A stretch of 64,000 nucleotides of DNA from an uncultured Armatimonadia bacterium (GTDB taxonomy: Bacteria > Armatimonadota > Zipacnadia > Zipacnadales > UBA11051), in contig CAZJVY010000008.1 in assembly GCA_964549395.1 (NCBI GenBank), positions 1,654-65,653 on the forward strand, given 5' to 3'. A program made the position numbers and the translations under genes. This document shows, one piece after another, positions 45,546-63,410 of this stretch. The notes beneath the pieces were generated by a model. The model was not told the DNA's origin. It did not search any database and saw nothing but the letters and a program-made list of their open reading frames with translations. Position 1 is the first letter of the stretch; every line of letters begins with the position of its first letter.

Positions 45546-48500
45546 ATGTCCAGACAGACAATGACTTATCTGACCGCAATCAGTGTGTTTGTGGCGATCT
45601 CCATGGCTTGCGCCGAAGGTGAGCTCAGATGCATTCAGCAGCCGACATTCTGGATAGTCGGACAGCAGACACGGATCATGATCCAAACACCAGAGGATTG
45701 CGGGAAACTCGAGGTCACCCATCCGGATGGGCTCGAGCTTTTCGACCGCTGGCCCTACAAGGCAGGAGATACCACCCAGCGGTTCTACTTTCGCGCGCAG
45801 AAGCCGCTGGAGGCGGGGGAGATCCGGTTCAAGTCGGGAGGATACGAGCTATCTCTGCCGGTGCGGGTCCTATCCTGGGAGCAGGCGCTGACGGACGAGT
45901 TTGAGAGCGGGGGCTTCAAGCTGCCCCGCGTATTCCCTCTGGAGGGAAAGGACGAGCATAGGAGCGGACTGAGCTTTCTGACGCAAGAGTATGTTGATCG
46001 GTTCCGGCGCAGCGGCATAGGCGGAGCCGGCGGCGAAGAAGTCGTCTCGAAGCGGCTCGCAGAAGCCGAAGACATGGAGAAAGTATTCTACGCCTTGCCG
46101 GAGACGACGGTACCGCGCAGCGTGTATGTGAACCGCTACCCGATGACGGGCTGCCCGATATGCGGGAAGAAGGTGTTTGAGGGGCGTTCAGGGTTCTACC
46201 CGTGGACCTTGGACTACGAGAATCACCCGTATCAACTGCAGTGCCCCGAATGTGGGCGCTGGTTCCCTACGAACGACTTCGCCTCCGGCGACATGGCAAG
46301 CGGCGAATTTCCCGACGACGGCTGGTGCTACTTTGCGGACGATGGCACACCGTATGGTTTCGTGGCCTACTATTGCTGCTGGTACTACATGAACCGCTTC
46401 AGGAACCTGCCTTATGTCTACGCGAATATGTACGCGTGTACGGGCGACAGGCGCTTGGGGCGGGCGGCGGCATTGACGCTTTTCCGTCTGGCCGAGCAGT
46501 ACCTGAATCTCGCACTTAATGTCAATCAGCGCAAGGCCTACACCCGCGAGGCCCTGTGGCGAGGCGGAATTGTGCCGCAGGGCACACCTGCGGTGGACGG
46601 AGGATGGTACTACGTTGAGGGCAACTGGGAAGTTCCTCTGGTGGGACTGTACGCGCCCGCGTTCGAGTGGATATGGGACTACTTCGACGAAGATGACCCG
46701 GAACTGATCCACTTCTTGCAGCAACATCACCACCCCGAGATCAAGACGATGCAGGACGTGCGGCAGTTCATCGAGACCGGCTACTTCCGCGTTGTGGCCC
46801 AAGGCTGCCTGGACCGCACCATCGTGGGCAATCATCCCCAGGGCCAGCGCGCCGCGATGGAGCTGGCACTCGTCCTCAACAGCTCACGCTCGCACGAGAT
46901 CGTGGACTGGACCTTCAATGGCGCAGGGGGGATGCGCTACTTCCTCACGAACGAGTTCTTCATAGATGGTTCGGCCTTCGAGGCTCCCGGATACAACCGC
47001 GGCCACTACATCAATACGCAGGAGATTGCGGATTTGATGGATAGAATCCGCGGCATGCGACCTGACGATTACGAGCATGCCGGATTCCCCTTGCTGGCAG
47101 ACGATCCGAAGTACAAGTACATGTATGACTTCAACATCAACTACAGCCTGATTGGCCGCACTTGCGCTCATGTGGGCGATTCCGGTGATGTCGCTCCGAC
47201 GGAGCCATGGCCGCTCCACCCCTGCTCGACCCTGTCGCGTCAAGACTACATCAAGCCTTTTCAGAAGTGCCCTGATAACGTCAACTTCGCGCGAGTGCTC
47301 TGGGACCCCGAAACCAATCAGCCCATCAAACAGCTTGCCGACGAGAAGCTGCGTGCAAAGGTGACCGAACTTGTCGAGAAGCACGGAGCAGAACTTGATC
47401 TGCCCAGCAACGTACTGGACGGCTACAAGCACGTCATATTGCGCAGCGGAGAGGGCGAGGACAAGCGCGCCTTGTGGATGCGGTACGGGCAGGCGTTCGG
47501 CCATGTGCACTACGATCAACTGAGCATCGGCTATGAGGCGCTGAAGCGAACACTGCTGCCGGAGCTGGGCTACTACAGGGGGGAAGACTACCGCACCGAA
47601 TGGGACATGAACTGGTGCATCCACTACAATGCGCGGATCGTCGGAGAGGATGTGAAGCCGGCGACCAGAGGCAACGGTGCTCTGAAGATGTTTGCCGACG
47701 GCGGCTGGGCGAAGATGGCGACCGCCATGGACCGCAAGCATGTAGTCGTGGACCCGCCGCAGCTCTACCAGATGCTCCCGGAGCAGATTAGGGAGCGCAC
47801 CATCGCGCTGGTGGACATATCACCCCAGCACTCCTACGCGGTGAGCATCTTCCAACTACATGGCGGCACAGATCATTACTGGAGCTTCCACGGGCCGCGC
47901 GGGACTGCCGAGTGCAGCGGCCTGAAGCTAACGGCACAGAATGGCGGGACGCTGGCCGGGCCGGATATCCCGTATGGTATTAAATGGGATTCAGAATGGA
48001 GCAAGGCAAACTGGGAGATCATGTGCTTTCCGTTCCTCTATGACGTGTACCGAGGCACGGCCGAGGGTATCTGGAGCATGGACTGGACGCTGGAGAACTA
48101 CCCGGACGTGCACATGCGGATGCACGCGATACAGCCCAGCGGAGCGGATGTGGGATTGGCAAAGGGCAAACCACCAGGCGGTGGCAAGCCCTACGAGCTC
48201 CAGTGGGCGGTGCAGCACACGAGGGGCGAGTTCCCGCTGAGCAGTTGCTTTGCCACAGTCATCGAGGCATACGAAGGCGAACCACTGATAACGGATGTGC
48301 AGCACCTGAATGTCAGCACGCAGGTCGCAGGTCAGCATTCCCCCGTTGCGTTCCGGATCACGTGCGGCGACCGGGTGGACACGATTATCTACTGCCGCGA
48401 TCCCGACGGACCTGTAACAACCGGCAATGGGATTACCATGCAGGGATCTCTTGGCATTTGGGCTGAGGTCGGGAACCAGGTCAAGGGTGTATTCCTCGCC

Positions 48501-49073
48501 AACGGAACCCGCATAGCTAAGGGGGAGAAGCAGTACACGCTTCCGACAGCCGCATGGTCCGGACAGATCGTGTCGGCGGACTTCACGGAACGCAAGCTAG
48601 TGGTGGCACCGCCTCACCCACAGCCCGAGGCGCTTGTGGGCCGTTACGCGCACATCACCAACGAGCAAGGAAATGATGTCACTCACTTGATAGTCGGGGC
48701 TCAGACGGTAGCTGAAGGCACGGAACTGACATTGGAGCTCGACCCTCGCATCGGCGAGGGTCCGGTGGTCGAGATACACGAGGACGGCATCACCTCCGGC
48801 ATGCAGCTCGTGTTCGGCGGCTATTTGTACTACCACGGGAAGACACTGAGCAATGAGGATGCTTCGGCGCTATACAAGATTAACGGGGTGAGGAGCTCGC
48901 GAGCATACATCAACACTCAGGTGCACCCGGACGCAGGCAAGGAGAAGCTGGGGATCGAATTCACGGATAGGGAGAACGACGGCAACGTGCGGTTCACCAT
49001 CTACGACTACGGCCCTGGCGATGCCGTTACGGTTCCCAACTTCATTTCTGTAGGCAACGCGAGCGGCGGCTAG
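45546..49073 (+). CDS. Secreted heparinase II/III-like (polysaccharide-lyase fold) protein with N-terminal Cys module and C4 zinc-ribbon-like insert, paralog 1
   Basis: Signal peptide MTYLTAISVFVAISMACA. Conserved LRCIQQPTFWIVGQQTRI...DCGKLEV; CPICGKKVFEGRSGFYPWTLDYENHPYQLQCPECGRWFP; heparinase-type GHVHYDQLS (HxHxDxxS); beta-rich C-terminal region of about 300 aa. Confidence 0.6.
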   Translation: MSRQTMTYLTAISVFVAISMACAEGELRCIQQPTFWIVGQQTRIMIQTPEDCGKLEVTHPDGLELFDRWPYKAGDTTQRFYFRAQKPLEAGEIRFKSGGYELSLPVRVLSWEQALTDEFESGGFKLPRVFPLEGKDEHRSGLSFLTQEYVDRFRRSGIGGAGGEEVVSKRLAEAEDMEKVFYALPETTVPRSVYVNRYPMTGCPICGKKVFEGRSGFYPWTLDYENHPYQLQCPECGRWFPTNDFASGDMASGEFPDDGWCYFADDGTPYGFVAYYCCWYYMNRFRNLPYVYANMYACTGDRRLGRAAALTLFRLAEQYLNLALNVNQRKAYTREALWRGGIVPQGTPAVDGGWYYVEGNWEVPLVGLYAPAFEWIWDYFDEDDPELIHFLQQHHHPEIKTMQDVRQFIETGYFRVVAQGCLDRTIVGNHPQGQRAAMELALVLNSSRSHEIVDWTFNGAGGMRYFLTNEFFIDGSAFEAPGYNRGHYINTQEIADLMDRIRGMRPDDYEHAGFPLLADDPKYKYMYDFNINYSLIGRTCAHVGDSGDVAPTEPWPLHPCSTLSRQDYIKPFQKCPDNVNFARVLWDPETNQPIKQLADEKLRAKVTELVEKHGAELDLPSNVLDGYKHVILRSGEGEDKRALWMRYGQAFGHVHYDQLSIGYEALKRTLLPELGYYRGEDYRTEWDMNWCIHYNARIVGEDVKPATRGNGALKMFADGGWAKMATAMDRKHVVVDPPQLYQMLPEQIRERTIALVDISPQHSYAVSIFQLHGGTDHYWSFHGPRGTAECSGLKLTAQNGGTLAGPDIPYGIKWDSEWSKANWEIMCFPFLYDVYRGTAEGIWSMDWTLENYPDVHMRMHAIQPSGADVGLAKGKPPGGGKPYELQWAVQHTRGEFPLSSCFATVIEAYEGEPLITDVQHLNVSTQVAGQHSPVAFRITCGDRVDTIIYCRDPDGPVTTGNGITMQGSLGIWAEVGNQVKGVFLANGTRIAKGEKQYTLPTAAWSGQIVSADFTERKLVVAPPHPQPEALVGRYAHITNEQGNDVTHLIVGAQTVAEGTELTLELDPRIGEGPVVEIHEDGITSGMQLVFGGYLYYHGKTLSNEDASALYKINGVRSSRAYINTQVHPDAGKEKLGIEFTDRENDGNVRFTIYDYGPGDAVTVPNFISVGNASGG

Positions 49074-49101
49074 AAAGGGACGGCACTAAGGCAGTTCCGT
49101 G

Positions 49102-49133
49102 GCCCCCTCTTGGACGTGGTGAGAGGGGGCTTT
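49102..49133 (+). terminator. Rho-independent terminator-like hairpin after paralog 1
   Basis: GCCCCCTCT-tggacgtggtg-AGAGGGGGC followed by TTT: a 9-bp GC-rich stem and 11-nt loop, 29 nt after the stop. Confidence 0.5.
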
Positions 49134-49247
49134 GCCGCATTTACGGGCCGAGCGTCGCCGCCCACCAACGCTCGCCGACAAGGAACAGGGACGGTTGGCG
49201 GCCAATAGTGTGTAGAGAATACCGCATGAGAGAACGCGAAACCAGAA

Positions 49248-52200
49248 ATGCGAAAAGGGGTAGGCATCATGCGAATACAACACCATTTGTGCCTGTTGGC
49301 GATAATCAGCTTGACGCTGGCGATGGCGGCTTGGGGTGACGGGGATCTGAAGTGCATCCAGAAGCCGCTATTCTGGCTGGATGGCCAGCAGACCAGGATA
49401 GTCATCGAGACTCCTGCGGATTGCGGGAAGCTGGAGGTGGCGTATCCCGATGCGCTGAAGCTGTTTGACCGCTGGCCGTACAAGGCAGGGGACACCACGC
49501 AGCGATTCTATTTCCGTGCCATGCGGCCTTTGGAGGCGGGGGAGATTGCATTCAAATTCGGCAATTACGAGCTCAAGCTGCCGGTGCAGGTGCTACCGTG
49601 GGCTGAGGCGTTGAGGGCGGGAAGTCGCGAGTTCGAGGGACTGGCGGTACCACGGATATTCCCGATGGAGGGGGACGACGAGCACAAGAGCGGTCCGACA
49701 TTCCTGAAACAAGCCGAGGTCGAAGCATTGCGAGCGGGCCGCGAGGCGCACCGGGAAGAGGGAGAGAAGATAGCGGCGGCCCTGCCCGACGCCCGTAAGC
49801 TGTTCTACGACCTCCCGGAAAGCACCATCCCGCGTGCGGTTTTCGTCCAGTACAAGAACCCGAAGGGCTGTCCCATATGCGGCCGGAAGATATTCGAGGG
49901 CCGTTCCCCGTTTTACCCGTGGGTATTGGACTACAAGGACCACCCATATCAGGTGCAGTGCCCCGAGTGCAAGCGATGGTTCCCGGACAACAACTTCGCC
50001 GCCGATGACATGACCAGCGGCGAATACGCGGATGACGGCTGGGCCTACATAGACAAGACTGGCGACCCATACTGCTTTGTGTCATATTACACTCAGTACT
50101 ACTACCGAGGTTCTTACGGACCCAACATGCGCAACTATGCCGTGGCTTACGCACGTACCGGAAATCAACACGTGGGGCGCGCGGCAGCGCTGATGATGTT
50201 CCGCATCGCCGAGCAGTACCTCAACCTTGCGCTCAACATCAACCAGCGCAAGGCATACATGCGCAGCGCGGTGTGGAGCGCCTCCATCATCCCACAGACC
50301 AACGTCAGGATGTACAACACCTGGTTCTACATAGAGCATAACTGGGAGTGCCCGCTTGTACCTCAGTACGCAGTGGCGTTTGACCAGCTATGGGATTACT
50401 TCGACACGGAGGACCCGGAGTTCCTCAAGTTCCTGCAGGAGAACCATCATCCGGAGATACAGACGATGGCGGATGCGCGGAATTTCCTCGAGACAGGATA
50501 TTTGCGTGTGGTGGCGCAAGGATGTCTGGACAAGACGCTCATTGGCAACCATCCCCAGTCCCAGCGTGCCGCCATGGAGGCGGCGCTGGCGCTGAATACG
50601 CCACGCTCCTACGACATCGTGGAATGGACCTTCAACCGCGAGGGCGGAATGAGGTATTTCCTCACCAACGAGTTTTTCATAGACGGCTCAGCCTTTGAAT
50701 CACCCGGCTACAACCGGGGCCACTACATCAACACGCAGTCCGTCGCCGATGTGCTGAACCGGATCGTGGAGCTGAATCCGGACAGGTACAAGGATGCCGG
50801 CTTCCCGCTCTTGACACAGGATCCCAAGTACAAGTACATGTACGACCTGAACATCAAGTACGGTCTGCTTGGCCGCACCTGCGCCCTTGTCGGCGATGCA
50901 GGAGATGTCGCTTCCACCGAGCCGCATAGCCCAAGTCCCTGCTCAACTCTGGGCCGAGCCGATTACGTCGCGCCGTTTACCCTCTTCCCGGATGATGTCA
51001 ACTTCGCAAAGGTGCTATGGGACCCCGGGGCCAGTGCACCTATTCCGCAGTTGCAGGATGAACAGTTACGCACGAAGGTGACAGACATAGTACAGCGCGA
51101 GGGCTCCGAAATCGAGTTGCCCAGCACATTCCTGAACGGCTACGAACATGCGATCCTACGCAGCGGCAGCGGCGATGACAGGCGGACGCTGTGGGTGCGT
51201 TGGGGCGAGTTGTACGGTCACAGGCATGATGATCTGCTGACAATGGGCTTCGAGGCCAAGCAGCGCACACTACTCCCCGAGTTAGGCTACCCGCACAGTT
51301 GGACGTTCCGCGTGCCGTGGGAGGGGAACCGGCTCACACACTACAGCGCCGAGATCGTGGGGGAGCCGGAGGGCACCTTGCGTATCGGAGGCGGCGTGTT
51401 GGAGCTGTTCGCGGATGGCGGTTGGGCGAAGATGGCCTGTGCCGCAGCGCGGTCGTACAAGTCCGCAGCCGCTCCCCAGATCTACGAGATGCTGCAGGGT
51501 CCTGTGATGGCGCGAACCATCGCGCTGGTGGACATCAATGACACCGATTCCTATGCAGTGGATATCTTCCGCCTCGGCGGCGGCACCGATCACTACGTCA
51601 GCTTTCACGGCCCCAGGGGCGAGGGTTCACCCGAAGGGCTCAACCTGACACCCCAGCCGCACGGCACCATGGCGGGGCCTGACGTCGAGTATGCCAAGGG
51701 GCAGGCGTGGACTAAGGCCAACCCGCAGTTGGCGGCGTTCCCCTACCTGTACGACGTCCAGAGAGCCACCTCACAGGGCGTGTGGGACATTGACTGGACG
51801 CTGGACAACTACCCGGACCTACACCTCCGCGTGTATGCGGTACAACCGCAGGGATCTGACGTGGGGCTCGCCAAGGGCAAGCCACCGGGCGGCGGCAATC
51901 CATACGAGCTACTTTGGGTCATTGAGCACCGCAGCAACGACGCCGCGCCACTGAGCAGTCAGTTCGTCAAGGTTTTGGAGGCGTACGAGGGCGAACCGGC
52001 GATTTCTGAAGTCCGCCGCCTCGGAGTGATGACCGAGAGCCAGGGAGACCAGCCGCCTGTGGCGTTCGAGGTGGCAATCGGGAATCGCGTGGACACCGTG
52101 ATTCACTGCTATGACCCGACTGTAGCCGTAACCACAAAGAGCGGCGTGAGCATGCTCGGGTCATTCGGCGTTTGGTCCGAGGTCGGGGGGCAGATGCAGA

Positions 52201-52787
52201 AGGCGCTGCTCGTCAACGGTGGGTACATCGCGAAGGGCAACGCGCGAGTGGCGGCGGAGAACCCATCCTGGACCGGCGAAATCGTCTCAGCGGATTTCGC
52301 GGAGCGGAAAGTGCTGGTGAAGCCGGCGGTTCCCAGGCCGGAAGCGGTGGTCGGCCGCCAGGTGCGGATAACGAACGATTCGGGCAATGACTGTTCGCAC
52401 ATCATTGTGGCGGCCACAAACGTCGGGGATGCCACGGAGCTGACGCTGGAATACGATCCACGGATCGGCGAGGGGCCGGTGGAAGGTGTCGGCGACGGCT
52501 TCGTGGCCTGCGGGGCAGACCTTATCTTCGGACGCTGGCTGTACTACCACGGCAAGACACTGGCAAACGAAGACGCATCTGGGCTCTACAAGACAAGCGC
52601 CGTCGTCGGCACGCACAACGTGTACCTTGACCCGGCGCGGCACGCCGACGTGAAGGCCGCGGAATTGGGCGCCGCATTTGTGGATAAGGACGGAGACGAC
52701 ATAGCGCGCCTGGTCATCTACGACTACGGGCCTGGGGACACGGTGACCGTGCCCAATGTCACCTCTGTTGACGCGACCAAGCAGTGA
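49248..52787 (+). CDS. Secreted heparinase II/III-like protein with Cys module and zinc-ribbon insert, paralog 2
   Basis: Signal peptide (MRIQHHLCLLAIISLTLAMA). LKCIQKPLFWLDGQQTRIVIETPADCGKLEV; CPICGRKIFEGRSPFYPWVLDYKDHPYQVQCPECKRWFP; GHRHDDLLT. Co-linear with paralogs 1 and 3 throughout. Confidence 0.6.
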   Translation: MRKGVGIMRIQHHLCLLAIISLTLAMAAWGDGDLKCIQKPLFWLDGQQTRIVIETPADCGKLEVAYPDALKLFDRWPYKAGDTTQRFYFRAMRPLEAGEIAFKFGNYELKLPVQVLPWAEALRAGSREFEGLAVPRIFPMEGDDEHKSGPTFLKQAEVEALRAGREAHREEGEKIAAALPDARKLFYDLPESTIPRAVFVQYKNPKGCPICGRKIFEGRSPFYPWVLDYKDHPYQVQCPECKRWFPDNNFAADDMTSGEYADDGWAYIDKTGDPYCFVSYYTQYYYRGSYGPNMRNYAVAYARTGNQHVGRAAALMMFRIAEQYLNLALNINQRKAYMRSAVWSASIIPQTNVRMYNTWFYIEHNWECPLVPQYAVAFDQLWDYFDTEDPEFLKFLQENHHPEIQTMADARNFLETGYLRVVAQGCLDKTLIGNHPQSQRAAMEAALALNTPRSYDIVEWTFNREGGMRYFLTNEFFIDGSAFESPGYNRGHYINTQSVADVLNRIVELNPDRYKDAGFPLLTQDPKYKYMYDLNIKYGLLGRTCALVGDAGDVASTEPHSPSPCSTLGRADYVAPFTLFPDDVNFAKVLWDPGASAPIPQLQDEQLRTKVTDIVQREGSEIELPSTFLNGYEHAILRSGSGDDRRTLWVRWGELYGHRHDDLLTMGFEAKQRTLLPELGYPHSWTFRVPWEGNRLTHYSAEIVGEPEGTLRIGGGVLELFADGGWAKMACAAARSYKSAAAPQIYEMLQGPVMARTIALVDINDTDSYAVDIFRLGGGTDHYVSFHGPRGEGSPEGLNLTPQPHGTMAGPDVEYAKGQAWTKANPQLAAFPYLYDVQRATSQGVWDIDWTLDNYPDLHLRVYAVQPQGSDVGLAKGKPPGGGNPYELLWVIEHRSNDAAPLSSQFVKVLEAYEGEPAISEVRRLGVMTESQGDQPPVAFEVAIGNRVDTVIHCYDPTVAVTTKSGVSMLGSFGVWSEVGGQMQKALLVNGGYIAKGNARVAAENPSWTGEIVSADFAERKVLVKPAVPRPEAVVGRQVRITNDSGNDCSHIIVAATNVGDATELTLEYDPRIGEGPVEGVGDGFVACGADLIFGRWLYYHGKTLANEDASGLYKTSAVVGTHNVYLDPARHADVKAAELGAAFVDKDGDDIARLVIYDYGPGDTVTVPNVTSVDATKQ

Positions 52788-52795
52788 CAAGGTTC

Positions 52796-52818
52796 CGCGT
52801 CAGATGGGGACTGACGCG
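52796..52818 (+). other. Perfect 8-bp stem hairpin (CGCGTCAG-atgggga-CTGACGCG) in the 34-nt spacer between paralogs 2 and 3
   Basis: Seen directly. No U-tract follows, so it is more likely an attenuator or processing/stability element than an efficient terminator. Confidence 0.3.
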
Positions 52819-52856
52819 ACGTGAAAACCGATACTGGCAATCTGAGGTGTTACGAG

Positions 52857-55800
52857 ATGCGAAACGGGATCGCGGGCGTCGTGCTCGTGTTGGTGGCGCT
52901 TGAGTGGGTATCGCTGGGCATGGCCGCAGACGAGTTGAAGTGCATCCAGAAGCCGATGTTCTGGTTGCTCGGGCAGCAGACGCGTATAGTCATCGAGACT
53001 CCTGGGGATTGCGGAAAGCTGGACGTAAAGTACCCCGATGCGCTGAAGCTCTTTGATCGGTGGCCGCATAAGACGGGGGACACGATTCAGCGCTTCTACT
53101 TCCGGGCGCTGCAACCTCTGGAGACAGGGGAGATTCTGTTCTCGTCCGGCGCCTACTCGCTTTCACTGCCTGTACAGGTGATTCCATGGGAACAGGCGCT
53201 CAAGCCGGGAAGCCTGGAGTTCGAGGGCCGACGGGTGCCGCTCATCTTCCCGATGGAGGGTGGGGACGAGCACAAGAGCGACATCAGCTTCCTCACGCGA
53301 CAGCAGCTTGACGAAATGCGCGCGGCCGGCGCCGGCGGTCCCGAGGCGGTGGCCAAGACGGTGGCCGCCCTGCCCGCCGATGAGGATGTGTTCTCCTGGT
53401 TGCCGGAGACGACGCTCCCACGCGCCGTATTTGTGCAGCGGACCAGCCCGAAAGGCTGCCCCATCTGCGGGCGCAAGATCTACGAAGGCCGCAGCCCCTT
53501 CTACCCGTGGGTGTTCGATTACGAGAACCATCCGTATCAGGTGCAGTGTCCCGAATGTAAGCGATGGTTCCCGGACAACAACTTCGCGGCTGGAGACATG
53601 ACAAACGGGCAGTACCCTGACGACGGATGGGGTTACATTGACCCGCAAGGGGACCCCTATTGCTTTGTTTCTTACTACAACTGCTGGCACTACCTCAACC
53701 GCTATATTCCGTTGGTGGACCGATACTGCGATCTGTACGCGCGCACCGGCAACCAGCGGATTGGTCGCACTGCGGCCCTGGCAATGTTCCGTGTGGCCGA
53801 GCAGTACCTGAACCTGGCGCTCAACATCAATCAGCGGAAGGCCTATACGCGCGAGGCGGTCTGGAGAGGCAAGATCATCCCTCAGACCGGCATGAAGCCC
53901 TACCAGACGTGGTTCTATGTCGAGGACAATTGGGAAGTACCCAGGCTAACCGGGTATGCCAAGGCGTTCGAGTGCATCTGGGACTACTTCGACACCGAGG
54001 ACCCGGAGTTTATCAAGTTCCTGCAAGACAACTACCACCCCGAGATCAGAACAATGGAGGATGCCCGCAGCTTCATCGAGACCGGCTACTTTCGGGTGAT
54101 GGCCCAGGGCTGCCTGGATGGCACGATCATCGGCAACCATCCGCAGGGCCAGCGATGCGCCATGGAGACTGCGTTGGTCCTTAACACCCCGCGCGCCAGG
54201 GAGATAGTGGAATGGACTTTCAACCAGGGCGGGATGCGCTACTTTCTCACCAACGAGTACTTCATTGACGGCGCGCCGTTTGAGTCGCCGTCCTACAACC
54301 GGGGACATGTCACCAACCTGCAAGCTGTTGCCGATGTACTGAACCGCATTGTGGAGTTGCGCCCGGAGCAATACAAGGATGCCAAGTTCCCGCTGCTGAC
54401 GAAAGACCCCAAGTACAAGACCATGTACGACTTCCACGTCAACTACAGCATGATCAACCGCACCTGGGCCGATGTCGGAGACTCCGGGGATGTGGAACGC
54501 ACGGATGCTCGACCTCTCGACATCTGCTCCTCACTGGGGCCGGAAGACTATGTGGCGCCCTTCGCGGTATATCCTGATTGCACCAACTTCGCCAGAGTGC
54601 TCTGGGACCCCAACGTCAGTGCCCCGATCCCAGCGCTGCGGGATGAGAGACTGCGGGCACAAGTCGAGGCCTTAATTGCTCGTGAGGGCGCGGAGCTGCA
54701 GCTTCCCAGCAATTTCCTGGACGGCTACGGCCAGGCCACACTGCGCAGCGGCAGTGGCAGCGACCAGCGGGCGCTATGGCTGCGCTGGGGTGAGTGTTAC
54801 GGGCATCGCCACGACGACATGCTAACAATGGGGTTTGAGGCGAAGCAGCGGACGCTGCTTCCAGAACTGGGTTATCCACATAGCTGGACGTTCCGCGTGC
54901 CGTGGGAGGGCAATCGCCTGACGCACTACAGCGCACAGATCGTCGGCGAAGACCCCGCCATTCGGCGGATAGGGGGCGGCGTTCTCGAACTCTTCGCCGA
55001 TGGCGGATGGGCAAAGATGGCCTGTGTGGGCACGCGTGCATACCGCGATGTGCCGGCGTGGCGCATCTACGAGATGGTACCCGGCCCGCTGATGGCCCGA
55101 AGTATAGCTCTGGTGGACATAAACGAGCGGGATTCCTATGGGATCAGCATCCTCCGACTGCGAGGCGGAACGCATCACTACGTGAGCTTTCACGGGCCTC
55201 GGGGAAGCGCTGCCGCGAGCGGCCTGCAACTCGTATCCCAGGCTGCCGGCACCCTCGCCGGGCCCGATGTCGAGTATGGCAAGGGTGACGAATGGACGAA
55301 GGCAAACCCCCTCCTATCGGCCTTCCCGTACATGTACGACGTACGGAAGGCGAGTGCCGACAGGCCGTGGCAAATGGAATGGACGCTGGAGAACTACCCC
55401 GATCTGCACCTGCGCATGTATGAGGTGCAGCCCCAGCCTTCGGATGTCAGCCTCGCAAAGGGCAAGCCGCCGGGAGGTGGTAACCCGTATCAACTGCAAT
55501 GGGTCATGCAGCACCGGGGTGGGAAAGAGGGACTGAGCAGCCAGTTCGCGACCGTCATCGAGCCGTACCAGGGGGAGCCTGCCATTTCCGAGGTCAGACA
55601 CATTCATGTAAGCAGCGACGATCAGAGCGACCAGCCGGCGGTGGCTTTCCAGGTCGTGCTGGGGGATCGTGTGGACACCATCATCCAGTGCTACGACCCG
55701 TCCATACCCGTGCGTACGGGCGACGGGGTGGAAATGCTTGGCTTTTTCGGGATATGGTCGGAGGTCAACGGCCGCATGGACAAGGCATTCCTGGTGAATG

Positions 55801-56375
55801 GCACGTACATAAGCAAGGGAGATGCCCGCGTTGAGGCGGAGGCGGCCTCGTACACGGGCAGAATAGTCACGGCGAACTTTCCGGCCCGTAAGATTGTGGT
55901 GGAGCCGACCCCGACGCCGCCGCAACTGCTCGTGGGCCGGCAATTGCGAATAACCAACGAGGCGGGGAACGACTGCTCGCATCTGATAGTCGGAGCCAGG
56001 AGCGTACCGGACGGCGTGGAACTGACCTTGGAGTTGGACCCACGGATCGGTGAGGGACCTGTCACCTCGGTCTTCGCCAGCTACATCGGCTGCGGGGCCG
56101 ACCTGATCTTCGGCCGATGGCTGTACTATCACGGAAAGACCCTAGCCAATGAGGACGGCTCAGCCACGTACAAGATTACCGGAGTGTCCGGGAACCACAA
56201 CGCGTTCCTTGACCAGACACAGCACCCGGGGCTGACACAGGAACAGCATGCGAGCGAATTCGTGGACAAGGACGGTGACGGTGTCGCACGCATGCTGATC
56301 TATGACTATGGGCCGGGCGACACCGTCACGGTGCCCAATTCCGTCGCGGTTGACATGGGCAGCGACGTGAAGTGA
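52857..56375 (+). CDS. Secreted heparinase II/III-like protein with Cys module and zinc-ribbon insert, paralog 3
   Basis: Signal peptide MRNGIAGVVLVLVALEWVSLGMA. LKCIQKPMFWLLGQQTRIVIETPGDCGKLDV; CPICGRKIYEGRSPFYPWVFDYENHPYQVQCPECKRWFP; GHRHDDMLT. Roughly 75% identical to paralog 2 by eye. Confidence 0.6.
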   Translation: MRNGIAGVVLVLVALEWVSLGMAADELKCIQKPMFWLLGQQTRIVIETPGDCGKLDVKYPDALKLFDRWPHKTGDTIQRFYFRALQPLETGEILFSSGAYSLSLPVQVIPWEQALKPGSLEFEGRRVPLIFPMEGGDEHKSDISFLTRQQLDEMRAAGAGGPEAVAKTVAALPADEDVFSWLPETTLPRAVFVQRTSPKGCPICGRKIYEGRSPFYPWVFDYENHPYQVQCPECKRWFPDNNFAAGDMTNGQYPDDGWGYIDPQGDPYCFVSYYNCWHYLNRYIPLVDRYCDLYARTGNQRIGRTAALAMFRVAEQYLNLALNINQRKAYTREAVWRGKIIPQTGMKPYQTWFYVEDNWEVPRLTGYAKAFECIWDYFDTEDPEFIKFLQDNYHPEIRTMEDARSFIETGYFRVMAQGCLDGTIIGNHPQGQRCAMETALVLNTPRAREIVEWTFNQGGMRYFLTNEYFIDGAPFESPSYNRGHVTNLQAVADVLNRIVELRPEQYKDAKFPLLTKDPKYKTMYDFHVNYSMINRTWADVGDSGDVERTDARPLDICSSLGPEDYVAPFAVYPDCTNFARVLWDPNVSAPIPALRDERLRAQVEALIAREGAELQLPSNFLDGYGQATLRSGSGSDQRALWLRWGECYGHRHDDMLTMGFEAKQRTLLPELGYPHSWTFRVPWEGNRLTHYSAQIVGEDPAIRRIGGGVLELFADGGWAKMACVGTRAYRDVPAWRIYEMVPGPLMARSIALVDINERDSYGISILRLRGGTHHYVSFHGPRGSAAASGLQLVSQAAGTLAGPDVEYGKGDEWTKANPLLSAFPYMYDVRKASADRPWQMEWTLENYPDLHLRMYEVQPQPSDVSLAKGKPPGGGNPYQLQWVMQHRGGKEGLSSQFATVIEPYQGEPAISEVRHIHVSSDDQSDQPAVAFQVVLGDRVDTIIQCYDPSIPVRTGDGVEMLGFFGIWSEVNGRMDKAFLVNGTYISKGDARVEAEAASYTGRIVTANFPARKIVVEPTPTPPQLLVGRQLRITNEAGNDCSHLIVGARSVPDGVELTLELDPRIGEGPVTSVFASYIGCGADLIFGRWLYYHGKTLANEDGSATYKITGVSGNHNAFLDQTQHPGLTQEQHASEFVDKDGDGVARMLIYDYGPGDTVTVPNSVAVDMGSDVK

Positions 56376-56421: not shown

Positions 56422-58254
56422 CTAGAGGAGCTTGAGTACTCGCCAGCCTCCGGCGGGGACTGTCACCTCGAGCCTCGCGGGGCCACCGAGTCTCCCCAGA
56501 TTGTCGCCGCTAAGCATATCGGTGACCTCATGCGAACCGGCGGAGGTGATGGTAGCCTCCGTCGGAGCGTCAAGGTCCCAGTTTGCGATCATCAGCAGTA
56601 GCTCGTCACCGACGTCGTAGAGCTTGCTGATGCCCATGCGGGATGAAACTGTGACCGGCGGCTGTGCGGCCCCGCGGACCAGAGGCAGGAGTTCCTTCTC
56701 GGCGTCGGCGTACTGAGCATTGAGGTACTTGGTCTGGCGGTATCCGGCCTGAATGCGACGGTGCCAGTAGGTAACGTCGTACTTGACGTCCTGAGCGCGC
56801 GCGATGCCGACGCAGTCCCCGGCAGTGTACACCCGCAGTCCCGCCGCAACGGCTTGCTGAATGGCGCTGTGAGCACTCTTCGACAGGAAGCGGGCTGCAG
56901 GAATGATGAGTACCTTCAGACCGTCCAGCCCTCCCTCAGCGATCTCGTCCTCCATCACGATGCGGAACCATACATTGCCTCTCAGCAGGGCGAATGCAGT
57001 ACCCTCGAAACTGTGCAAGTGCACCCAGCGCTCATTCAGGTTGAGCTCCCAGGGCTGTTCGAGCACCTCGGTGGTGGTCGAGTAGAGAAGGCCGACCTGC
57101 GCGGGGTACGGATTGCGCGCAGCCAATGTCTCCTGCATAGCTGATACGTCCGCGTAGGCCTCGCCCATGCCATCATAGCCTTCGGGATAGTACGCCGTAT
57201 AGGCGCCGGATTGCCAGTAGCATATCGCGTTGGCACCCTCAGTCACCGTGATTCTGGCCATCTGCGCGATCTCATCAGGGCCCATCATCTGCATGCGGTT
57301 GTAGTGCTGGAGAAAGGGCCCTTCGGTGCTGAGGATGAGCTTTGGCGAGTTGGCGGTGACGTGCTCGCCGACCCCCCAGTGCTGCAGACCTTCTTCATCG
57401 GCCTCAGGCAGGCGCGGGAATGGGAATGCCTGATACAGGTACCAATCCTTCACCTGGATGCGGTCAATGCGCTGGATGAGCGCTCCCGAATCCCGTCGCA
57501 ACTCATCACGCGTCATGTTGGCATTGAGTAATCGTCCATAGTAGTACGAGTCGGACGGGATGGTCACCATCAGCAGATCCCTTGAGACGCTGCGCACGGC
57601 CTCTGCCTGCGCCTTCACGTAGCGGTTGTAGGCCTTGCGCTGGAACTGCTCCCACTGCAGCAGCGCGTCGTCGTCGGGGATGACACCCGTGCCGTGGTGA
57701 ACCTCGAACGGCGGCGGCTCCTTGCCGTATTGCTCCTTGAACAGGCGCCTGCAGGTGTCGCAATAGCAGCAATCCACTCGCATTCCCCATCCGTCGTCGA
57801 ACATGAACCCGCCGAACACATCGAATTCACTGTAGGCCTTGGCCTGAGCGACTATCGTGTCCCGCATCCAGTCGTAGAACTTATCCTGGTACAAGCAGGC
57901 CATCTCGATCTTGTGGCCGTCCACGTTTACCGCGTCGGTACCTTCGGGGTTGTTGGTGTAGTACTGGCCCATGATCAGGACCTTGATGCCGGTGCCCCTG
58001 TATTCCTTCTCAAGTTTCTCCCACCCCTTCCGGTGGCTGTCGGGGATGCGCGGTTGCCCGTCGGCTGTTTGCTCCATTTTGAGCGGGGCGCCGGTGTAAA
58101 CGTAGTCAATGCCTGCCTTCTGGAGCCATTCGGCCGGCACCGGGTTGTTCGCGTCAACGAGCGTCACGGCATGGTATTGCGTATTTGCCATTATCATACT
58201 CCCTCCCAGCAGCAGCGACAGAGCCATATGAGTCAGGAAGCGTAGGGGCGGCAT
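56422..58254 (-). CDS. Secreted GH42-like glycoside hydrolase (beta-galactosidase-like, Zn-binding Cys cluster)
   Basis: Likely start MPPLRFLTHMALSLLLGGSMIMA (signal peptide; SD-like ggagaa upstream); the ORF is open to 58443. The Cys cluster DCCYCDTC matches the GH42 CxCxxC zinc site. TIM-barrel-like segments and a C-terminal beta domain. Confidence 0.5.
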   Translation of the reverse strand: MPPLRFLTHMALSLLLGGSMIMANTQYHAVTLVDANNPVPAEWLQKAGIDYVYTGAPLKMEQTADGQPRIPDSHRKGWEKLEKEYRGTGIKVLIMGQYYTNNPEGTDAVNVDGHKIEMACLYQDKFYDWMRDTIVAQAKAYSEFDVFGGFMFDDGWGMRVDCCYCDTCRRLFKEQYGKEPPPFEVHHGTGVIPDDDALLQWEQFQRKAYNRYVKAQAEAVRSVSRDLLMVTIPSDSYYYGRLLNANMTRDELRRDSGALIQRIDRIQVKDWYLYQAFPFPRLPEADEEGLQHWGVGEHVTANSPKLILSTEGPFLQHYNRMQMMGPDEIAQMARITVTEGANAICYWQSGAYTAYYPEGYDGMGEAYADVSAMQETLAARNPYPAQVGLLYSTTTEVLEQPWELNLNERWVHLHSFEGTAFALLRGNVWFRIVMEDEIAEGGLDGLKVLIIPAARFLSKSAHSAIQQAVAAGLRVYTAGDCVGIARAQDVKYDVTYWHRRIQAGYRQTKYLNAQYADAEKELLPLVRGAAQPPVTVSSRMGISKLYDVGDELLLMIANWDLDAPTEATITSAGSHEVTDMLSGDNLGRLGGPARLEVTVPAGGWRVLKLL

Positions 58255-58387
58255 GTGCTCTTCTCCATAAAGGAAGGTATCGTGGACTGAATTCTCCCAA
58301 TTGACTCTTCGCCGCGCGTCCCTGGTGTCCTTCTGCAATGAGCAGCATCCGAGGTCCTTCATACTGGCGGTTGCACCTTGAAACTGC

Positions 58388-60985: not shown

Positions 60986-61003
60986 AATAAATAATATAAT
61001 AGA
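60986..61003 (-). promoter_or_regulatory. AT-rich island (ATAATAAATAATATAATAG) immediately upstream of the putative start of the 58388..60985 gene
   Basis: Seen directly: an 18-nt run of A/T in an otherwise >60% GC context. Candidate -10/UP element. Confidence 0.3.
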
Positions 61004-61138
61004 TTGCGCACTGCGCCCCGCTTCATGTGCTGCGTAGGCGCCCCGTGCACGCGACAACGCCTGCACTGCCGCCTGTCTGCGCGAGAAAGAGGGGAGGCCT
61101 GGCAAGGCCTCCCCTCGTGTTGGTTGCCTATTGACCGT

Positions 61139-62170: not shown

Positions 62171-62251
62171 GTTCCCACTCCTCTTCTCGCGGCGACAGCC
62201 GCATTTAGTCTGATGCACAGGCCCTCGGCTGCGTGCCGGCGCGTCGGTTGC

Positions 62252-63295: not shown

Positions 63296-63410
63296 GAACA
63301 CCTCCGAATGATTGGAATACCACATCGCATCCCCTATGCAACGACCGGGCACACATCTGCGCATGCCCGCAGCAGGTCACTATTCGCCGGAACAATGCCG
63401 ATCTCCTGCC

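What the first reader, a model, noticed from the sequence alone, without database searches (positions are those of the whole stretch)
45546..56375. Tandem triplicated ~1180-aa secreted lyase-like proteins carrying an unrecognised N-terminal Cys module with a C4 zinc-ribbon-like insert
Three consecutive same-strand genes encode co-linear paralogs of 1175, 1179 and 1184 aa. Each has a signal peptide and an invariant N-terminal block, (D/E)L(K/R)CIQ(K/Q)PxFW(L/I)xGQQTRI(V/M)I(E/Q)TPxDCGKL(E/D)VxYPDxLxLFDRWP(Y/H)KxGDTxQRFYFRA. About 200 aa in, there is a strictly conserved 4-Cys zinc-ribbon-like segment, CPICG(R/K)K(I/V)(F/Y)EGRSxFYPWxxDY(E/K)(N/D)HPYQ(V/L)QCPEC(K/G)RWFP. After that comes a region with the HxHxDxxS signature I associate with the Hepar_II_III polysaccharide-lyase family (GHVHYDQLS / GHRHDDLLT / GHRHDDMLT), and then a beta-rich C-terminus. 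I do not recognise the Cys module or ribbon from characterised heparinase, alginate or ulvan lyases. Paralogs 2 and 3 are much closer to each other than either is to paralog 1, which suggests successive duplications and substrate sub-specialisation. A strong terminator follows paralog 1, while paralogs 2 and 3 are separated only by a perfect 8-bp hairpin, so the three are probably not expressed identically.
Basis: partly seen in the sequence, partly recalled or inferred. Interest (0 to 1): 0.75.

Follow-up and report, generated by a model that had tools for sequence, protein, structure and literature searches.

The report
Three secreted lyase-like enzymes with metal ribbon
Three adjacent genes encode secreted enzymes from a large, unnamed branch of the heparinase/alginate-lyase fold superfamily; they keep the full lyase catalytic residue set and carry an extra N-terminal metal-binding ribbon not seen in any solved lyase, and their sugar substrate is unknown.

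Summary
Three same-strand ORFs (1175, 1179 and 1184 aa) are co-linear paralogs at 58–66% identity. The lyase idea is supported. A confident AlphaFold model (pLDDT 89) shows an (α/α)-toroid plus β-sandwich. Its closest solved structures are PL40, PL17, PL39, PL12 and PL21 lyases, at 10–13% identity. A diverse family profile aligns N429, Y483, D545, H653 and H655 to the mutationally validated catalytic residues of PL40 Uly1040, and H655/E673/H693 to the Alg17c zinc triad. Pfam, NCBIfam and single-sequence PDB searches find nothing.

- The "N-terminal Cys module" is a generic Ig-like domain whose two Cys are lineage-specific.
- The C4 ribbon is not universal. It alternates with Cys2-His-Gly-x-Glu (47 of 47 coupled), which argues for a metal site.
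- The array is not a recent triplication. Paralog 2 is the resident ortholog in related Armatimonadota genomes, which carry one copy there. Paralog 1's orthologs lie on other contigs.

The terminator and hairpin claims are weak. The ribbon scaffold marks about 800 clusters at 50% identity, mainly in MAGs of Armatimonadota, Planctomycetota and Lentisphaerota. This is probably an unclassified polysaccharide-lyase family. Substrate and metal content are untested.

The parts
45546..49073 (+). Paralog 1 gene (1175 aa). Layout: signal peptide 1-23, Ig-like domain 26-126, helical linker, ribbon 200-245, toroid ~255-613, beta-sandwich ~620-1000, C-terminal beta domains 1003-1170.
   Evidence: ORF. AlphaFold model pLDDT 89.2, pTM 0.85. 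Orthologs L003/L004 at 64% identity.
49248..52787 (+). Paralog 2 gene (1179 aa). It is the ortholog of the single family gene at the syntenic locus in related genomes.
   Evidence: 70-76% identity to L022, L005, L020, L009 and L010, and it falls inside that clade in the tree.
52821..56375 (+). Paralog 3 gene (1184 aa from the GTG; the more likely start is the ATG at 52857, giving 1172 aa). It is sister to the clade of paralog 2 plus its orthologs.
45621..45923 (+). Paralog 1 N-terminal Ig-like/E-set beta-sandwich, containing the lineage-specific Cys29/Cys52 pair. Equivalents: 49344-49649 in paralog 2 and 52932-53237 in paralog 3.
46143..46280 (+). Paralog 1 ribbon segment, CPICG-x26-CPEC (Cys203, 206, 233, 236), followed by the invariant FPTND motif.
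   Evidence: The four Cys are invariant in 32 close homologs. Ligand-swap pattern. pLDDT 71-94.
49860..49997 (+). Paralog 2 ribbon segment (Cys208, 211, 238, 241).
53448..53585 (+). Paralog 3 ribbon segment (Cys213, 216, 243, 246).
46308..47384 (+). Paralog 1 (alpha/alpha) toroid domain carrying Asn429-His430 (predicted neutraliser), Tyr483 (predicted catalytic acid) and Asp545 (tetrad Asp). Equivalents: 50025-51101 in paralog 2 and 53613-54686 in paralog 3.
   Evidence: Secondary structure. Alignment to Uly1040 N245/W246, Y305 and D358 and to Alg17c Y258. Roles from PMC12915356.
47403..48545 (+). Paralog 1 antiparallel beta-sandwich domain (Hepar_II_III_C-like). Equivalents: 51120-52259 in paralog 2 and 54705-55841 in paralog 3.
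47502..47516 (+). Paralog 1 H653-V-H655-Y-D657 motif: predicted catalytic base His653 and metal ligand His655. Equivalents: 51219-51233 in paralog 2 and 54804-54818 in paralog 3.
   Evidence: H653 is present in 87 of 87 family members. It aligns to Uly1040 H485/H487.
48552..49055 (+). Paralog 1 C-terminal beta-rich extension (~170 aa) ending in the conserved IYDYGPGD motif. It has no counterpart in the solved PL17/PL40 chains. Equivalents: 52266-52772 in paralog 2 and 55848-56354 in paralog 3.
   Evidence: strands 1003-1170, pLDDT >90. PDB alignments end at about profile position 945.
49101..49131 (+). GC-rich hairpin after paralog 1 (12-bp stem, UUU tail). It is a possible weak terminator or RNA-stability element.
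   Evidence: z = -1.94. Not called by the terminator scan.
52796..52818 (+). Perfect 8-bp hairpin between paralogs 2 and 3, with no U tail.
   Evidence: z = -0.70, chance level.
43917..44918 (+). Conserved cluster partner: alpha/beta-hydrolase esterase (DLH family, with a near-threshold match to glucuronoyl esterase).
   Evidence: Syntenic in L022 and L005 at 80-84% identity.
56422..58443 (-). Conserved cluster partner: 673-aa protein with only a weak GH42-like match. The real start is probably about 60-80 codons downstream of the listed one.
   Evidence: E = 0.006. Syntenic at 75-77% identity in L022, L020 and L005, with matches starting at residues 80-85.
58388..61105 (-). Conserved cluster partner: 905-aa protein with no recognisable family.
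   Evidence: No hit in Pfam, NCBIfam or PDB, and no hhalign match to the lyase family. Syntenic at 63-64% identity.
61139..62218 (-). Conserved cluster partner: PfkB sugar kinase resembling 2-dehydro-3-deoxygluconate/galactonate kinase.
   Evidence: 544 bits to the kinase half of NF041633; 230 bits to NF041332; both below the equivalog cut-offs. Syntenic in L022 and L020.
62252..63364 (-). Conserved cluster partner: Gfo/Idh/MocA NAD(P) oxidoreductase.

Best explanation
The three genes encode Sec-exported enzymes of an unnamed family within the heparinase II/III-alginate lyase fold superfamily, that is, an (alpha/alpha) toroid followed by an antiparallel beta-sandwich.

The most likely activity is beta-elimination of a uronate-containing polysaccharide or oligosaccharide, by the metal-assisted His/Tyr mechanism described for PL39 and PL40:
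- Asn429 (with His430) neutralises the C6 carboxylate.
- His653 abstracts the C5 proton. It is activated through Asp545 and the metal-bound His655.
- The metal site is His655/Glu673/His693.
- Tyr483 protonates the leaving glycosidic oxygen.

The unsaturated products would then feed a KDG-type pathway. The conserved neighbouring esterase, the GH42-like protein and the KDG-kinase-like PfkB fit a small catabolic cluster.

Compared with solved lyases, the family has three additions:
- An N-terminal Ig-like domain.
- A roughly 45-residue two-knuckle ribbon that most likely holds a structural metal. The ligands are Cys4 here and Cys2-His-Glu in a sister subfamily. The ribbon positions the invariant FP(S/T)ND...PDDG stretch against the toroid.
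- A roughly 170-residue C-terminal beta extension.

The three copies are old paralogs brought side by side in this genome. Each keeps the complete catalytic set but has lineage-stable differences next to the catalytic motifs, so they probably act on different linkages or substituents.

Shown here: genes, homology, fold, residue equivalences, ligand covariation, synteny and phylogeny. Inferred: lyase chemistry, metal occupancy, export and substrate.
For: - Fold: the model has pLDDT 89.2 and pTM 0.85. Foldseek top hits are PL40 9vtk (E = 1e-18, TM 0.60), PL17 Alg17c (TM 0.64), PL39, PL12, PL21, PL33 and PL35.
- Homology: the A7 profile against the PDB gives AlgL17 E = 1.4e-26, Uly1040 6e-25, Alg17c 3e-17, PL39 9e-12, PL12 3e-9 and PL15 2e-7, spanning both toroid and beta domain. 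The distant homologs P0054, P0068 and P0069 pass the PF07940 gathering score.
- Catalytic equivalence, counted in the alignments: N429 = N245, H430 = W246, Y483 = Y305 = Alg17c Y258, D545 = D358, H653 = H485, H655 = H487 = Alg17c H415, E673 = D433, H693 = H464. The roles of the Uly1040 residues were validated by mutagenesis (PMC12915356).
- Conservation: Y483 86/86, D545 86/86, H653 87/87 and N429 84/87. Y483 is invariant in 91 sequences down to 22% identity. All three paralogs keep all of these residues.
- Ribbon as a metal site: of 146 independent representatives, 83 are CCCC and 47 are CHCG, and 47 of 47 of the latter have Glu at +2, a position that is variable in the CCCC form. There are also CHCE and CHCD variants.
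- Context: the order permease-esterase-[family gene]-GH42-like-905 aa-PfkB-Gfo is conserved in three related genomes, and the PfkB is KDG-kinase-like.
- Paralog-specific motifs are shared with their orthologs: GHVHYD/GYYRGED in paralog 1 and L003, against GHRHDD/GYPHSWTF in paralogs 2 and 3 and L022.
Against: - No activity, substrate or metal has been measured for any member, and all homologs come from MAGs.
- Pfam and NCBIfam do not recognise the window proteins, and identity to characterised lyases is only 10-13%.
- The same fold and a similar His/Tyr site occur in dermatan-sulfate epimerase (rank 15), so elimination versus epimerisation is not settled by residues alone.
- The alignment of Alg17c N201/H202 is shifted relative to N429 in the two PL17 alignments, so the neutraliser assignment rests on the PL40 alignment.
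- The family-wide neighbourhood census shows no consistent uronate-pathway partner.
- A Cys4 zinc site is unusual in a Sec-exported protein.
Confidence: 0.68

Rival explanations
1. The fold and active site are the same, but the chemistry is different. The enzymes would be uronate C5-epimerases, as in dermatan-sulfate epimerase, or would act only on oligosaccharides or non-polymeric uronate conjugates, and would not be polysaccharide lyases.
For: Human DS-epimerase 1 (6hzn) is a significant structural match (E = 1.6e-10). Epimerases and lyases share the C5 proton-abstraction step (established knowledge). The family-wide gene context is not uniformly catabolic.
Against: The best sequence and structure matches are all lyases. 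The proteins carry signal peptides, and paralog 2 orthologs sit in a conserved cluster with an esterase, a GH-like protein and a KDG-kinase-like PfkB, which fits catabolism of elimination products. All five residues of the PL40 lyase mechanism are conserved.
Confidence: 0.12
2. The four ribbon cysteines form two disulfides that staple an extracytoplasmic loop, and do not bind a metal.
For: The proteins are predicted to be Sec-exported (inferred from the sequence), and Cys4 zinc sites are uncommon outside the cytoplasm. Positions 206 and 236 are lost together in subfamily B, as expected for a disulfide pair. No zinc-ribbon Pfam model reaches threshold.
Against: The losses are not random. Cys206 always becomes His (37 of 37), and the loss of Cys236 is always accompanied by Glu at +2 (47 of 47 representatives). 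CHCE and CHCD variants also exist. That is a ligand-replacement pattern. CPxCG is the canonical zinc-knuckle motif (established knowledge).
Confidence: 0.2
3. One reading: a recent in-situ tandem triplication followed by sub-specialisation, with differential expression set by the intergenic hairpins.
For: The three co-linear paralogs are adjacent on one strand. Paralogs 2 and 3 are closer to each other (66%) than either is to paralog 1 (58%). Active-site-proximal motifs differ between paralog 1 and paralogs 2 and 3.
Against: Related genomes with the same synteny have a single copy there, orthologous to paralog 2 at 70-72% identity, which is higher than paralog 2 versus paralog 3. Paralog 1's orthologs (64%) lie on other contigs of those same genomes. 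Paralog 3 branches outside the paralog 2 ortholog clade. All the splits therefore predate these species. DNA identity is only 64-68%. The hairpins are weak or at chance level.
Confidence: 0.1

Closest known systems
CAZy PL40 ulvan lyase Uly1040 (PDB 9vtk; PMC12915356)
   Same: It has an (alpha/alpha)6 toroid plus an antiparallel beta-sandwich. It is the best Foldseek hit (E = 1e-18) and has a profile E of 6e-25. All five mutationally validated residues (N245, Y305, D358, H485, H487) align to family-invariant N429, Y483, D545, H653 and H655. The His430 next to Asn429 matches the Trp-to-His variant noted for PL40.
   Different: Identity is 12%, and there is no pairwise sequence hit. Uly1040 has two domains (856 aa) and lacks the ~250-aa N-terminal Ig-like domain, linker and ribbon, and the ~170-aa C-terminal extension. 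PL40 is mostly marine Bacteroidota, whereas this family is mainly Armatimonadota, Planctomycetota and Lentisphaerota. The substrate here is unknown.
CAZy PL17 alginate/oligoalginate lyases (Alg17c 4nei, AlgL17 9irq)
   Same: It gives the best profile hit (E = 1.4e-26 over profile positions 249-912) and the best target TM-score (0.64). The catalytic Tyr258 aligns to Y483. The Zn triad H415/D433/H464 aligns to H655/E673/H693.
   Different: Identity is 12-13%. The N201/H202 neutraliser pair does not align cleanly. PL17 has no ribbon, Ig-like domain or C-terminal extension. Pfam Alginate_lyase and Hepar_II_III_C do not hit the window proteins.
Pfam PF07940 Hepar_II_III_C / heparinase II-III superfamily (PL12, PL15, PL21, PL33, PL35, PL39)
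   Same: The GHxHxD motif opens the beta-sandwich domain. Distant family members (P0054, P0068, P0069) pass the PF07940 gathering score. Structural matches to PL12, PL21, PL33, PL35 and PL39 have E between 1e-9 and 1e-15.
   Different: The three window proteins and their close relatives score nothing against PF07940. They form a separate clade defined by the ribbon scaffold: 798 clusters at 50% identity.
Classical C4 zinc ribbons / zinc knuckles (e.g. Pfam Zn_ribbon_3, Trm112p)
   Same: There are two CPxC(G) knuckles about 26 residues apart on short beta hairpins. There are weak sub-threshold Pfam matches (Trm112p E = 0.017, Zn_ribbon_3 E = 0.73).
   Different: No match reaches threshold. The segment is embedded in an exported glycan-active enzyme, not in a cytoplasmic nucleic-acid or translation protein. 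The ligand set alternates with Cys2-His-Glu within one family.

Membership tests
Heparinase II/III-like lyase fold superfamily (toroid plus beta-sandwich) | An (alpha/alpha)n toroid followed by an antiparallel beta-sandwich | tested here: met
   AlphaFold model pLDDT 89.2. There are 18 PDB hits with E <= 1e-3, all from this superfamily.
Heparinase II/III-like lyase fold superfamily (toroid plus beta-sandwich) | Pfam PF07940 Hepar_II_III_C match above the gathering score | tested here: not met
   There is no PF07940 hit for any of the three paralogs even at E <= 1. The criterion is met only by the distant homologs P0054, P0068 and P0069.
Heparinase II/III-like lyase fold superfamily (toroid plus beta-sandwich) | Conserved catalytic Tyr (toroid), His (beta domain) and Asn neutraliser at equivalent positions | tested here: met
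   The profile alignment maps Y483, H653 and N429 to Uly1040 Y305, H485 and N245, and Y483 to Alg17c Y258. They are invariant or nearly invariant in 87-91 sequences.
Heparinase II/III-like lyase fold superfamily (toroid plus beta-sandwich) | Beta-domain metal site (His/Asp-or-Glu/His) | tested here: met
   H655, E673 and H693 align to the Alg17c Zn ligands H415, D433 and H464. This is a sequence equivalence only; occupancy is untested.
Heparinase II/III-like lyase fold superfamily (toroid plus beta-sandwich) | Beta-eliminative cleavage giving 4,5-unsaturated uronates | not testable with these tools
   This requires an enzyme assay.
CAZy PL40 | Significant direct sequence similarity to characterised PL40 members over the catalytic module | tested here: not met
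   phmmer of paralog 1 against all PDB sequences finds no lyase at E <= 10. Identity in the structural alignment is 12%. dbCAN/CAZy HMMs were not available.
CAZy PL40 | His-Asp-His-metal tetrad plus Tyr acid | tested here: met
   alignment, with roles taken.
CAZy PL17 | Significant direct sequence similarity, and the Pfam Alginate_lyase plus Hepar_II_III_C architecture | tested here: not met
   Searches find no hits. Only the 91-sequence profile detects PL17.
CAZy PL17 | Asn201-His202 neutraliser pair | tested here: inconclusive
   In the AlgL17 alignment N429 lies 4 residues before the NH pair. In the Alg17c alignment it lies about 18 residues after it.
C4 zinc ribbon | Two CxxC knuckles on beta hairpins | tested here: met
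   CPICG-x26-CPEC is present in all three paralogs. Short strands flank both knuckles in the model.
C4 zinc ribbon | Match to a curated zinc-ribbon model | tested here: not met
   The best matches are Trm112p E = 0.017 (15.5 bits against a cut-off of 22) and Zn_ribbon_3 E = 0.73.
C4 zinc ribbon | Four ligands converge on one metal; metal present | not testable with these tools
   No model coordinates are exposed. Indirect support comes from the Cys4 to Cys2-His-Glu ligand covariation.
Ig-like / E-set accessory domain | Seven-to-eight-stranded beta-sandwich of ~90-100 residues | tested here: met
Dermatan-sulfate epimerase-like | Same fold with C5-epimerase activity | tested here: inconclusive
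   The fold match to 6hzn has E = 1.6e-10. Activity is not testable.

The most novel reading that the evidence does not exclude
These proteins are founding members of an unclassified polysaccharide-lyase family of about 800 clusters at 50% identity, heavily expanded in Armatimonadota, Planctomycetota and Lentisphaerota. The family would act on a uronate polymer not covered by current PL families. Its N-terminal ribbon would be a true extracytoplasmic metal site, Cys4 or Cys2-His-Glu, that is required for activity. It could be required either because it shapes the substrate cleft through the invariant ND...DDG stretch, or because it acts as a redox- or metal-sensitive switch.
Probability: 0.3. 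Interest if true: 0.65.

Novelty: new variant of a known kind. Interest (0 to 1): 0.45.

Why it matters
Standard annotation (Pfam, NCBIfam, single-sequence PDB search) returns nothing for these roughly 1200-aa secreted proteins. Yet they form a large, multi-copy family in poorly studied, uncultured glycan degraders from Armatimonadota, Planctomycetota, Lentisphaerota and WS1. Single genomes carry 5-7 or more copies. This work shows they are lyase-fold enzymes with an intact His/Tyr/metal catalytic set. That turns a block of hypothetical proteins into testable CAZyme candidates and points to a probable new PL family. The alternation of the ribbon between Cys4 and Cys2-His-Glu is a neat natural experiment on a metal site in exported enzymes. 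The practical value is better CAZyme annotation of these phyla, and possibly a new substrate specificity. It does not reveal a new kind of biology.

Tried and rejected
- Pfam and NCBIfam on all three paralogs gave only sub-threshold zinc-finger noise.
- phmmer of paralog 1 against PDB sequences found nothing relevant.
- A toroid-only profile (A3) against the PDB gave only E ~0.1 hits to PL38 and PL17, too weak to map residues. This was superseded by the 91-sequence full-length profile.
- A look-up of the contig encoding P0001, the 100% match, found no record.
- AFDB50 fold search is not installed.
- Model coordinates are not exposed in the sandbox, so Cys-Cys distances and the ribbon's position relative to the cleft could not be measured.
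- A Pfam census of 115 flanking ORFs across about 60 loci was diffuse. No family occurred more than 3 times, so it gave no substrate clue.
- hhalign of the 905-aa neighbour against the family profile found no relationship. PDB sequence searches with both neighbours found nothing.
- Literature searches for polysaccharide lyase plus zinc ribbon, Armatimonadota plus heparinase, and new PL families found no prior description.
- The idea that the N-terminal block is a novel Cys module was rejected. It is a generic Ig-like fold, and its Cys are not conserved.
- The idea of a recent tandem triplication was rejected on the tree and the synteny.
- The 8-bp hairpin as a meaningful regulatory signal was rejected. 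It is at chance level.

Full report
**Observation**

The window contains three consecutive + strand ORFs at 45546-49073 (1175 aa), 49248-52787 (1179 aa) and 52821-56375 (1184 aa).
- Global pairwise identities are 57.9% (1 vs 2), 58.4% (1 vs 3) and 66.0% (2 vs 3). DNA identities are 64-68%.
- Paralog 3 probably starts at the ATG at 52857, which has GAGGTG 7 nt upstream. That gives a typical signal peptide and 1172 aa.
- The N-termini have a basic n-region, a 15-20-residue hydrophobic core and small residues before the mature (D/E)L(K/R)C. The model shows a low-confidence helix over residues 2-23. Sec export is therefore inferred, not tested.

**Are they recognisable?**

Not by standard means.
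- Pfam and NCBIfam give no significant hit for any paralog. There are only sub-threshold zinc-finger matches over residues 200-245.
- phmmer against all PDB sequences finds nothing relevant. In particular, PF07940 (Hepar_II_III_C) is not detected.

**Homologs**

- A search of 5.8 billion proteins gives 53 full-length relatives at 36-64% identity. All are unnamed or 'hypothetical', and they come from Armatimonadota or Pirellulales MAGs.
- A shell at 22-29% identity follows. Some of its members carry PF07940, and one is named 'heparinase II/III family protein'.
- A scan of species-representative genomes finds 129 confirmed loci, all MAGs:
  - Armatimonadota: Ca. Zipacnadia (best match, 64%), Armatimonadia, Abditibacteriales and Fimbriimonadaceae.
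  - Planctomycetota.
  - Lentisphaerota/Victivallales, including rumen MAGs.
  - WS1.
- Single genomes hold 5-7 or more copies.

**Structure**

With a 32-sequence alignment, AlphaFold2 gives a confident model (pLDDT 89.2, pTM 0.85):

| Residues | Element |
|---|---|
| 1-23 | signal peptide |
| 28-126 | beta-sandwich |
| 147-181 | helical linker |
| ~200-245 | short-strand ribbon segment |
| 272-613 | all-alpha region |
| 622-~1000 | large beta region |
| 1003-1170 | further beta domains |

- Foldseek against the PDB returns 18 hits with E <= 1e-3. All are toroid plus beta-sandwich enzymes at 10-13% identity: PL40 Uly1040 (E = 1e-18, TM 0.60), PL17 Alg17c (TM 0.64), PL39 Dp0100, PL12 heparinase III, PL21 heparinase II, DS-epimerase 1, PL33 and PL35.

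**Catalytic residues**

- A 13-sequence profile first linked the beta domain to PL40, PL17 and PL15 (E from 2e-11 to 1e-2). It aligned the family GH653xH655xD to Uly1040 IH485GH487.
- The Uly1040 paper shows by mutagenesis that (PMC12915356):
  - His485 is the base.
  - His487 binds Mn and, through Asp358, activates His485.
  - Tyr305 is the acid.
  - Asn245 and Trp246 neutralise the carboxylate.
- A 91-sequence profile (22-64% identity to paralog 1) then aligned across both domains:

| PDB target | Family | E-value |
|---|---|---|
| AlgL17 | PL17 | 1.4e-26 (profile 249-912) |
| Uly1040 | PL40 | 6e-25 |
| Alg17c | PL17 | 3e-17 |
| 6jp4 (Dp0100) | PL39 | 9e-12 |
| 4mmh | PL12 | 3e-9 |
| 3a0o | PL15 | 2e-7 |
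| 8r73 | PL33 | 3.5e-5 |
| 8khw | PL35 | 2e-3 |

- Counting residues in those alignments gives these equivalences:

| Family residue | Uly1040 (PL40) | Alg17c (PL17) | Role |
|---|---|---|---|
| N429 | N245 | – | neutraliser |
| H430 | W246 | – | neutraliser partner |
| Y483 | Y305 | Y258 | catalytic Tyr |
| D545 | D358 | – | tetrad Asp |
| H653 | H485 | – | catalytic base |
| H655 | H487 | H415 | metal ligand |
| E673 | – | D433 | Zn ligand |
| H693 | – | H464 | Zn ligand |

- The Alg17c N201/H202 pair aligns inconsistently, which I mark as inconclusive.
- Conservation is very high: H653 87/87, Y483 86/86, D545 86/86 and N429 84/87. Y483 is invariant in the 91-sequence set.
- All three paralogs keep every one of these residues, so none looks like a decayed copy.

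**The N-terminal 'Cys module'**

- Its two Cys (C29, C52) occur in only 16 and 20 of 87 relatives, and are absent from P0046 and P0053. They are probably a lineage-specific disulfide (inference).
- The module as a fold is absent from some distant members (P0054, P0068, P0069). It is present without Cys in others (P0055-P0063).
- It is an ordinary accessory domain, not a novel module.

**The ribbon**

- C203, C206, C233 and C236 are invariant in the 32 close homologs.
- Across 87 family ORFs from the fetched loci, position 206 is Cys in 46 and His in 37. Position 236 is Cys in 48 and Gly in 36. C203 and C233 are always kept.
- Subfamily B also has Glu at position 238 in 97% of members, where subfamily A is mostly Arg.
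- A 77-position profile of the segment was searched against 1.84 billion representatives. It finds 798 proteins at E <= 1e-3 and 343 at E <= 1e-10. Most are 1000-1400 aa, and a few are multidomain giants of up to 4066 aa.
- The ligand patterns among 146 independent representatives are:

| Pattern | Count | Note |
|---|---|---|
| CCCC | 83 | the +2 residue is variable |
| CHCG | 47 | all 47 have Glu at +2 |
| CHCE | 2 | acid placed directly at ligand position 4 |
| CHCD | 1 | acid placed directly at ligand position 4 |
| SHDD, STDS and similar | a few | Cys lost |

- Replacement of Cys by His, together with recruitment of a carboxylate, is what a preserved metal site looks like. It is not what a lost disulfide looks like. 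I therefore favour a metal site (about 0.7).
- The caveat is that a Cys4 site in a Sec-exported protein is unusual, and that I could not measure the geometry because coordinates are not exposed.
- PDB alignments of the profile begin at position 249. The Ig domain, linker and ribbon are therefore an N-terminal addition with no counterpart in any solved relative.
- The residues just after the ribbon (N243, D244, D257, D258, G259) are more conserved than the Cys themselves. N243 and D257 are invariant in 91 sequences. They persist even in members that have lost all four Cys (P0068).
- This suggests that the ribbon's job is to position that stretch (inference).

**Evolution of the array**

- Three related genomes share the order permease-esterase-[family gene]-GH42-like-905 aa-PfkB-Gfo, at 63-84% protein identity: L022 (CSMAG_1176), L005 (Ca. 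Zipacnadia Meg22_1012_Bin_300) and L020 (uncultured Armatimonadia). L022 and L005 show the upstream part of that order. L020 starts at the family gene and shows only the downstream part. Each has only one family gene there.
- That gene is the ortholog of paralog 2: 70-72% identity, with fragments L009 and L010 at 74-76%.
- Paralog 1 groups with L003 and L004 (64%), which lie on other contigs of the same two genomes.
- Paralog 3 branches outside the clade of paralog 2 and its orthologs.
- All three lineages therefore predate the divergence of these genomes. The tandem arrangement here results either from bringing old paralogs together or from loss or relocation in the relatives. It is not a recent in-situ triplication.
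- Motifs next to the catalytic residues differ between lineages and are shared with the respective orthologs: GHVHYD and GYYRGED(Y/F) in paralog 1 and L003, against GHRHDD and GYPHSWTF in paralogs 2 and 3 and L022. This supports stable functional differentiation.

**Expression signals**

- The hairpin after paralog 1 (49101-49131) has a 12-bp GC-rich stem but only a UUU tail. It folds at z = -1.94, and 8 of 200 shuffles fold as well. The terminator scan did not call it.
- The 8-bp hairpin between paralogs 2 and 3 (52796-52818) has z = -0.70, and 46 of 200 shuffles fold as well. At 60% GC that is chance level.
- No promoter-like site lies in either spacer. Co-transcription is untested.

**Context and substrate**

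- The conserved local cluster contains:
  - A DLH-type esterase with a near-threshold glucuronoyl-esterase match.
  - A weakly GH42-like protein.
  - An orphan 905-aa protein.
  - A PfkB kinase resembling KDG/KDGal kinases (544 and 230 bits, below the equivalog cut-offs).
  - A Gfo/Idh/MocA oxidoreductase.
- This fits catabolism of an esterified uronate-containing glycan through unsaturated uronates to KDG. That is an inference.
- Family-wide, the neighbourhoods are heterogeneous. Among 115 flanking ORFs, none of the 107 Pfam families hit occurs more than 3 times. Sulfatase, DLH and xylose-isomerase-like TIM occur 3 times each; Gfo, BNR and GH20b occur twice each.
- One homolog (P0009) sits among GH123, BNR, peptidase S8 and DUF4855 genes.
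- The substrate cannot be named from the available evidence.

**Comparison and novelty**

- The proteins work like PL39/PL40/PL17-type His/Tyr metal-assisted lyases and belong to that fold superfamily.
- They are not members of PL40, PL17 or any other structurally characterised PL family by direct sequence similarity.
- CAZy/dbCAN membership in families without structures could not be tested. Literature searches found no description.
- I rate this a new variant of a known kind. The catalytic core is known. The additions are an undescribed, family-defining N-terminal metal ribbon, an Ig-like domain and a C-terminal extension. The clade is large and invisible to Pfam.
- Interest is moderate. It is useful for CAZyme annotation and is a plausible new PL family, but it is not conceptually surprising.

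Noticed in passing
window 58388-61105 (-): A 905-aa protein with no Pfam, NCBIfam or PDB-sequence match and no hhalign relation to the lyase family. It is conserved at 63-64% identity in the same syntenic position in three related genomes. It is an orphan partner of the cluster, and its true start is probably about 80 codons downstream of the listed TTG.
   Followed up: partly
window 56422-58443 (-): A 673-aa protein with only a weak partial GH42 match (E = 0.006) and no PDB sequence hit. It is conserved at 75-77% identity next to the paralog 2 orthologs. The listed ORF overlaps the 905-aa ORF by 56 nt, probably because the listed start of the 673-aa ORF (at 58443) lies too far upstream.
   Followed up: partly
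window 45018-45308 (-): A small 96-aa ORF (MPYVLGLFRVKDFEAW...) with an AGGAGG-like ribosome-binding site lies between the esterase and paralog 1. It has no counterpart in the fetched related loci. In L022 the esterase is directly followed by the family gene.
   Followed up: partly
related loci and proteins (e.g. L032, L043-L048, P0054, P0077): A sister subfamily replaces the Cys4 ribbon by Cys-His-Cys-Gly-x-Glu. It often also changes H655 to Gln, E673 to His and P784 to Gln. Ligand changes at the ribbon and at the beta-domain metal site are therefore partly correlated.
   Followed up: partly
P0078 (4066 aa), P0212 (3628 aa), P0208 (2723 aa): The ribbon scaffold also occurs deep inside giant multidomain proteins, for example at residues 2741-2873 of a 4066-aa protein. 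The lyase-like unit is therefore also used as a module in very large proteins.
   Followed up: no
L032, L048, L056, L064, L066: Other genomes also carry two family genes within about 10 kb of each other, some on the same strand and adjacent. Local clustering of paralogs recurs in the family.
   Followed up: no
window 31710-33674 (-): A 654-aa protein matches DUF6785 (E = 8e-110) and DUF6784, a pair of domains of unknown function.
   Followed up: no
window 13367-20318 (+): An AddB-like/AddA-like helicase-nuclease pair (PDDEXK_1, ADDB_N, UvrD-helicase). The two listed ORFs overlap by about 80 nt.
   Followed up: no
window 33837-36452 (+): An 871-aa ORF combines a QueT/ECF S-component-like N-terminus with two ABC ATPase domains. 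This is either an unusual fusion or an over-extended ORF call.
   Followed up: no
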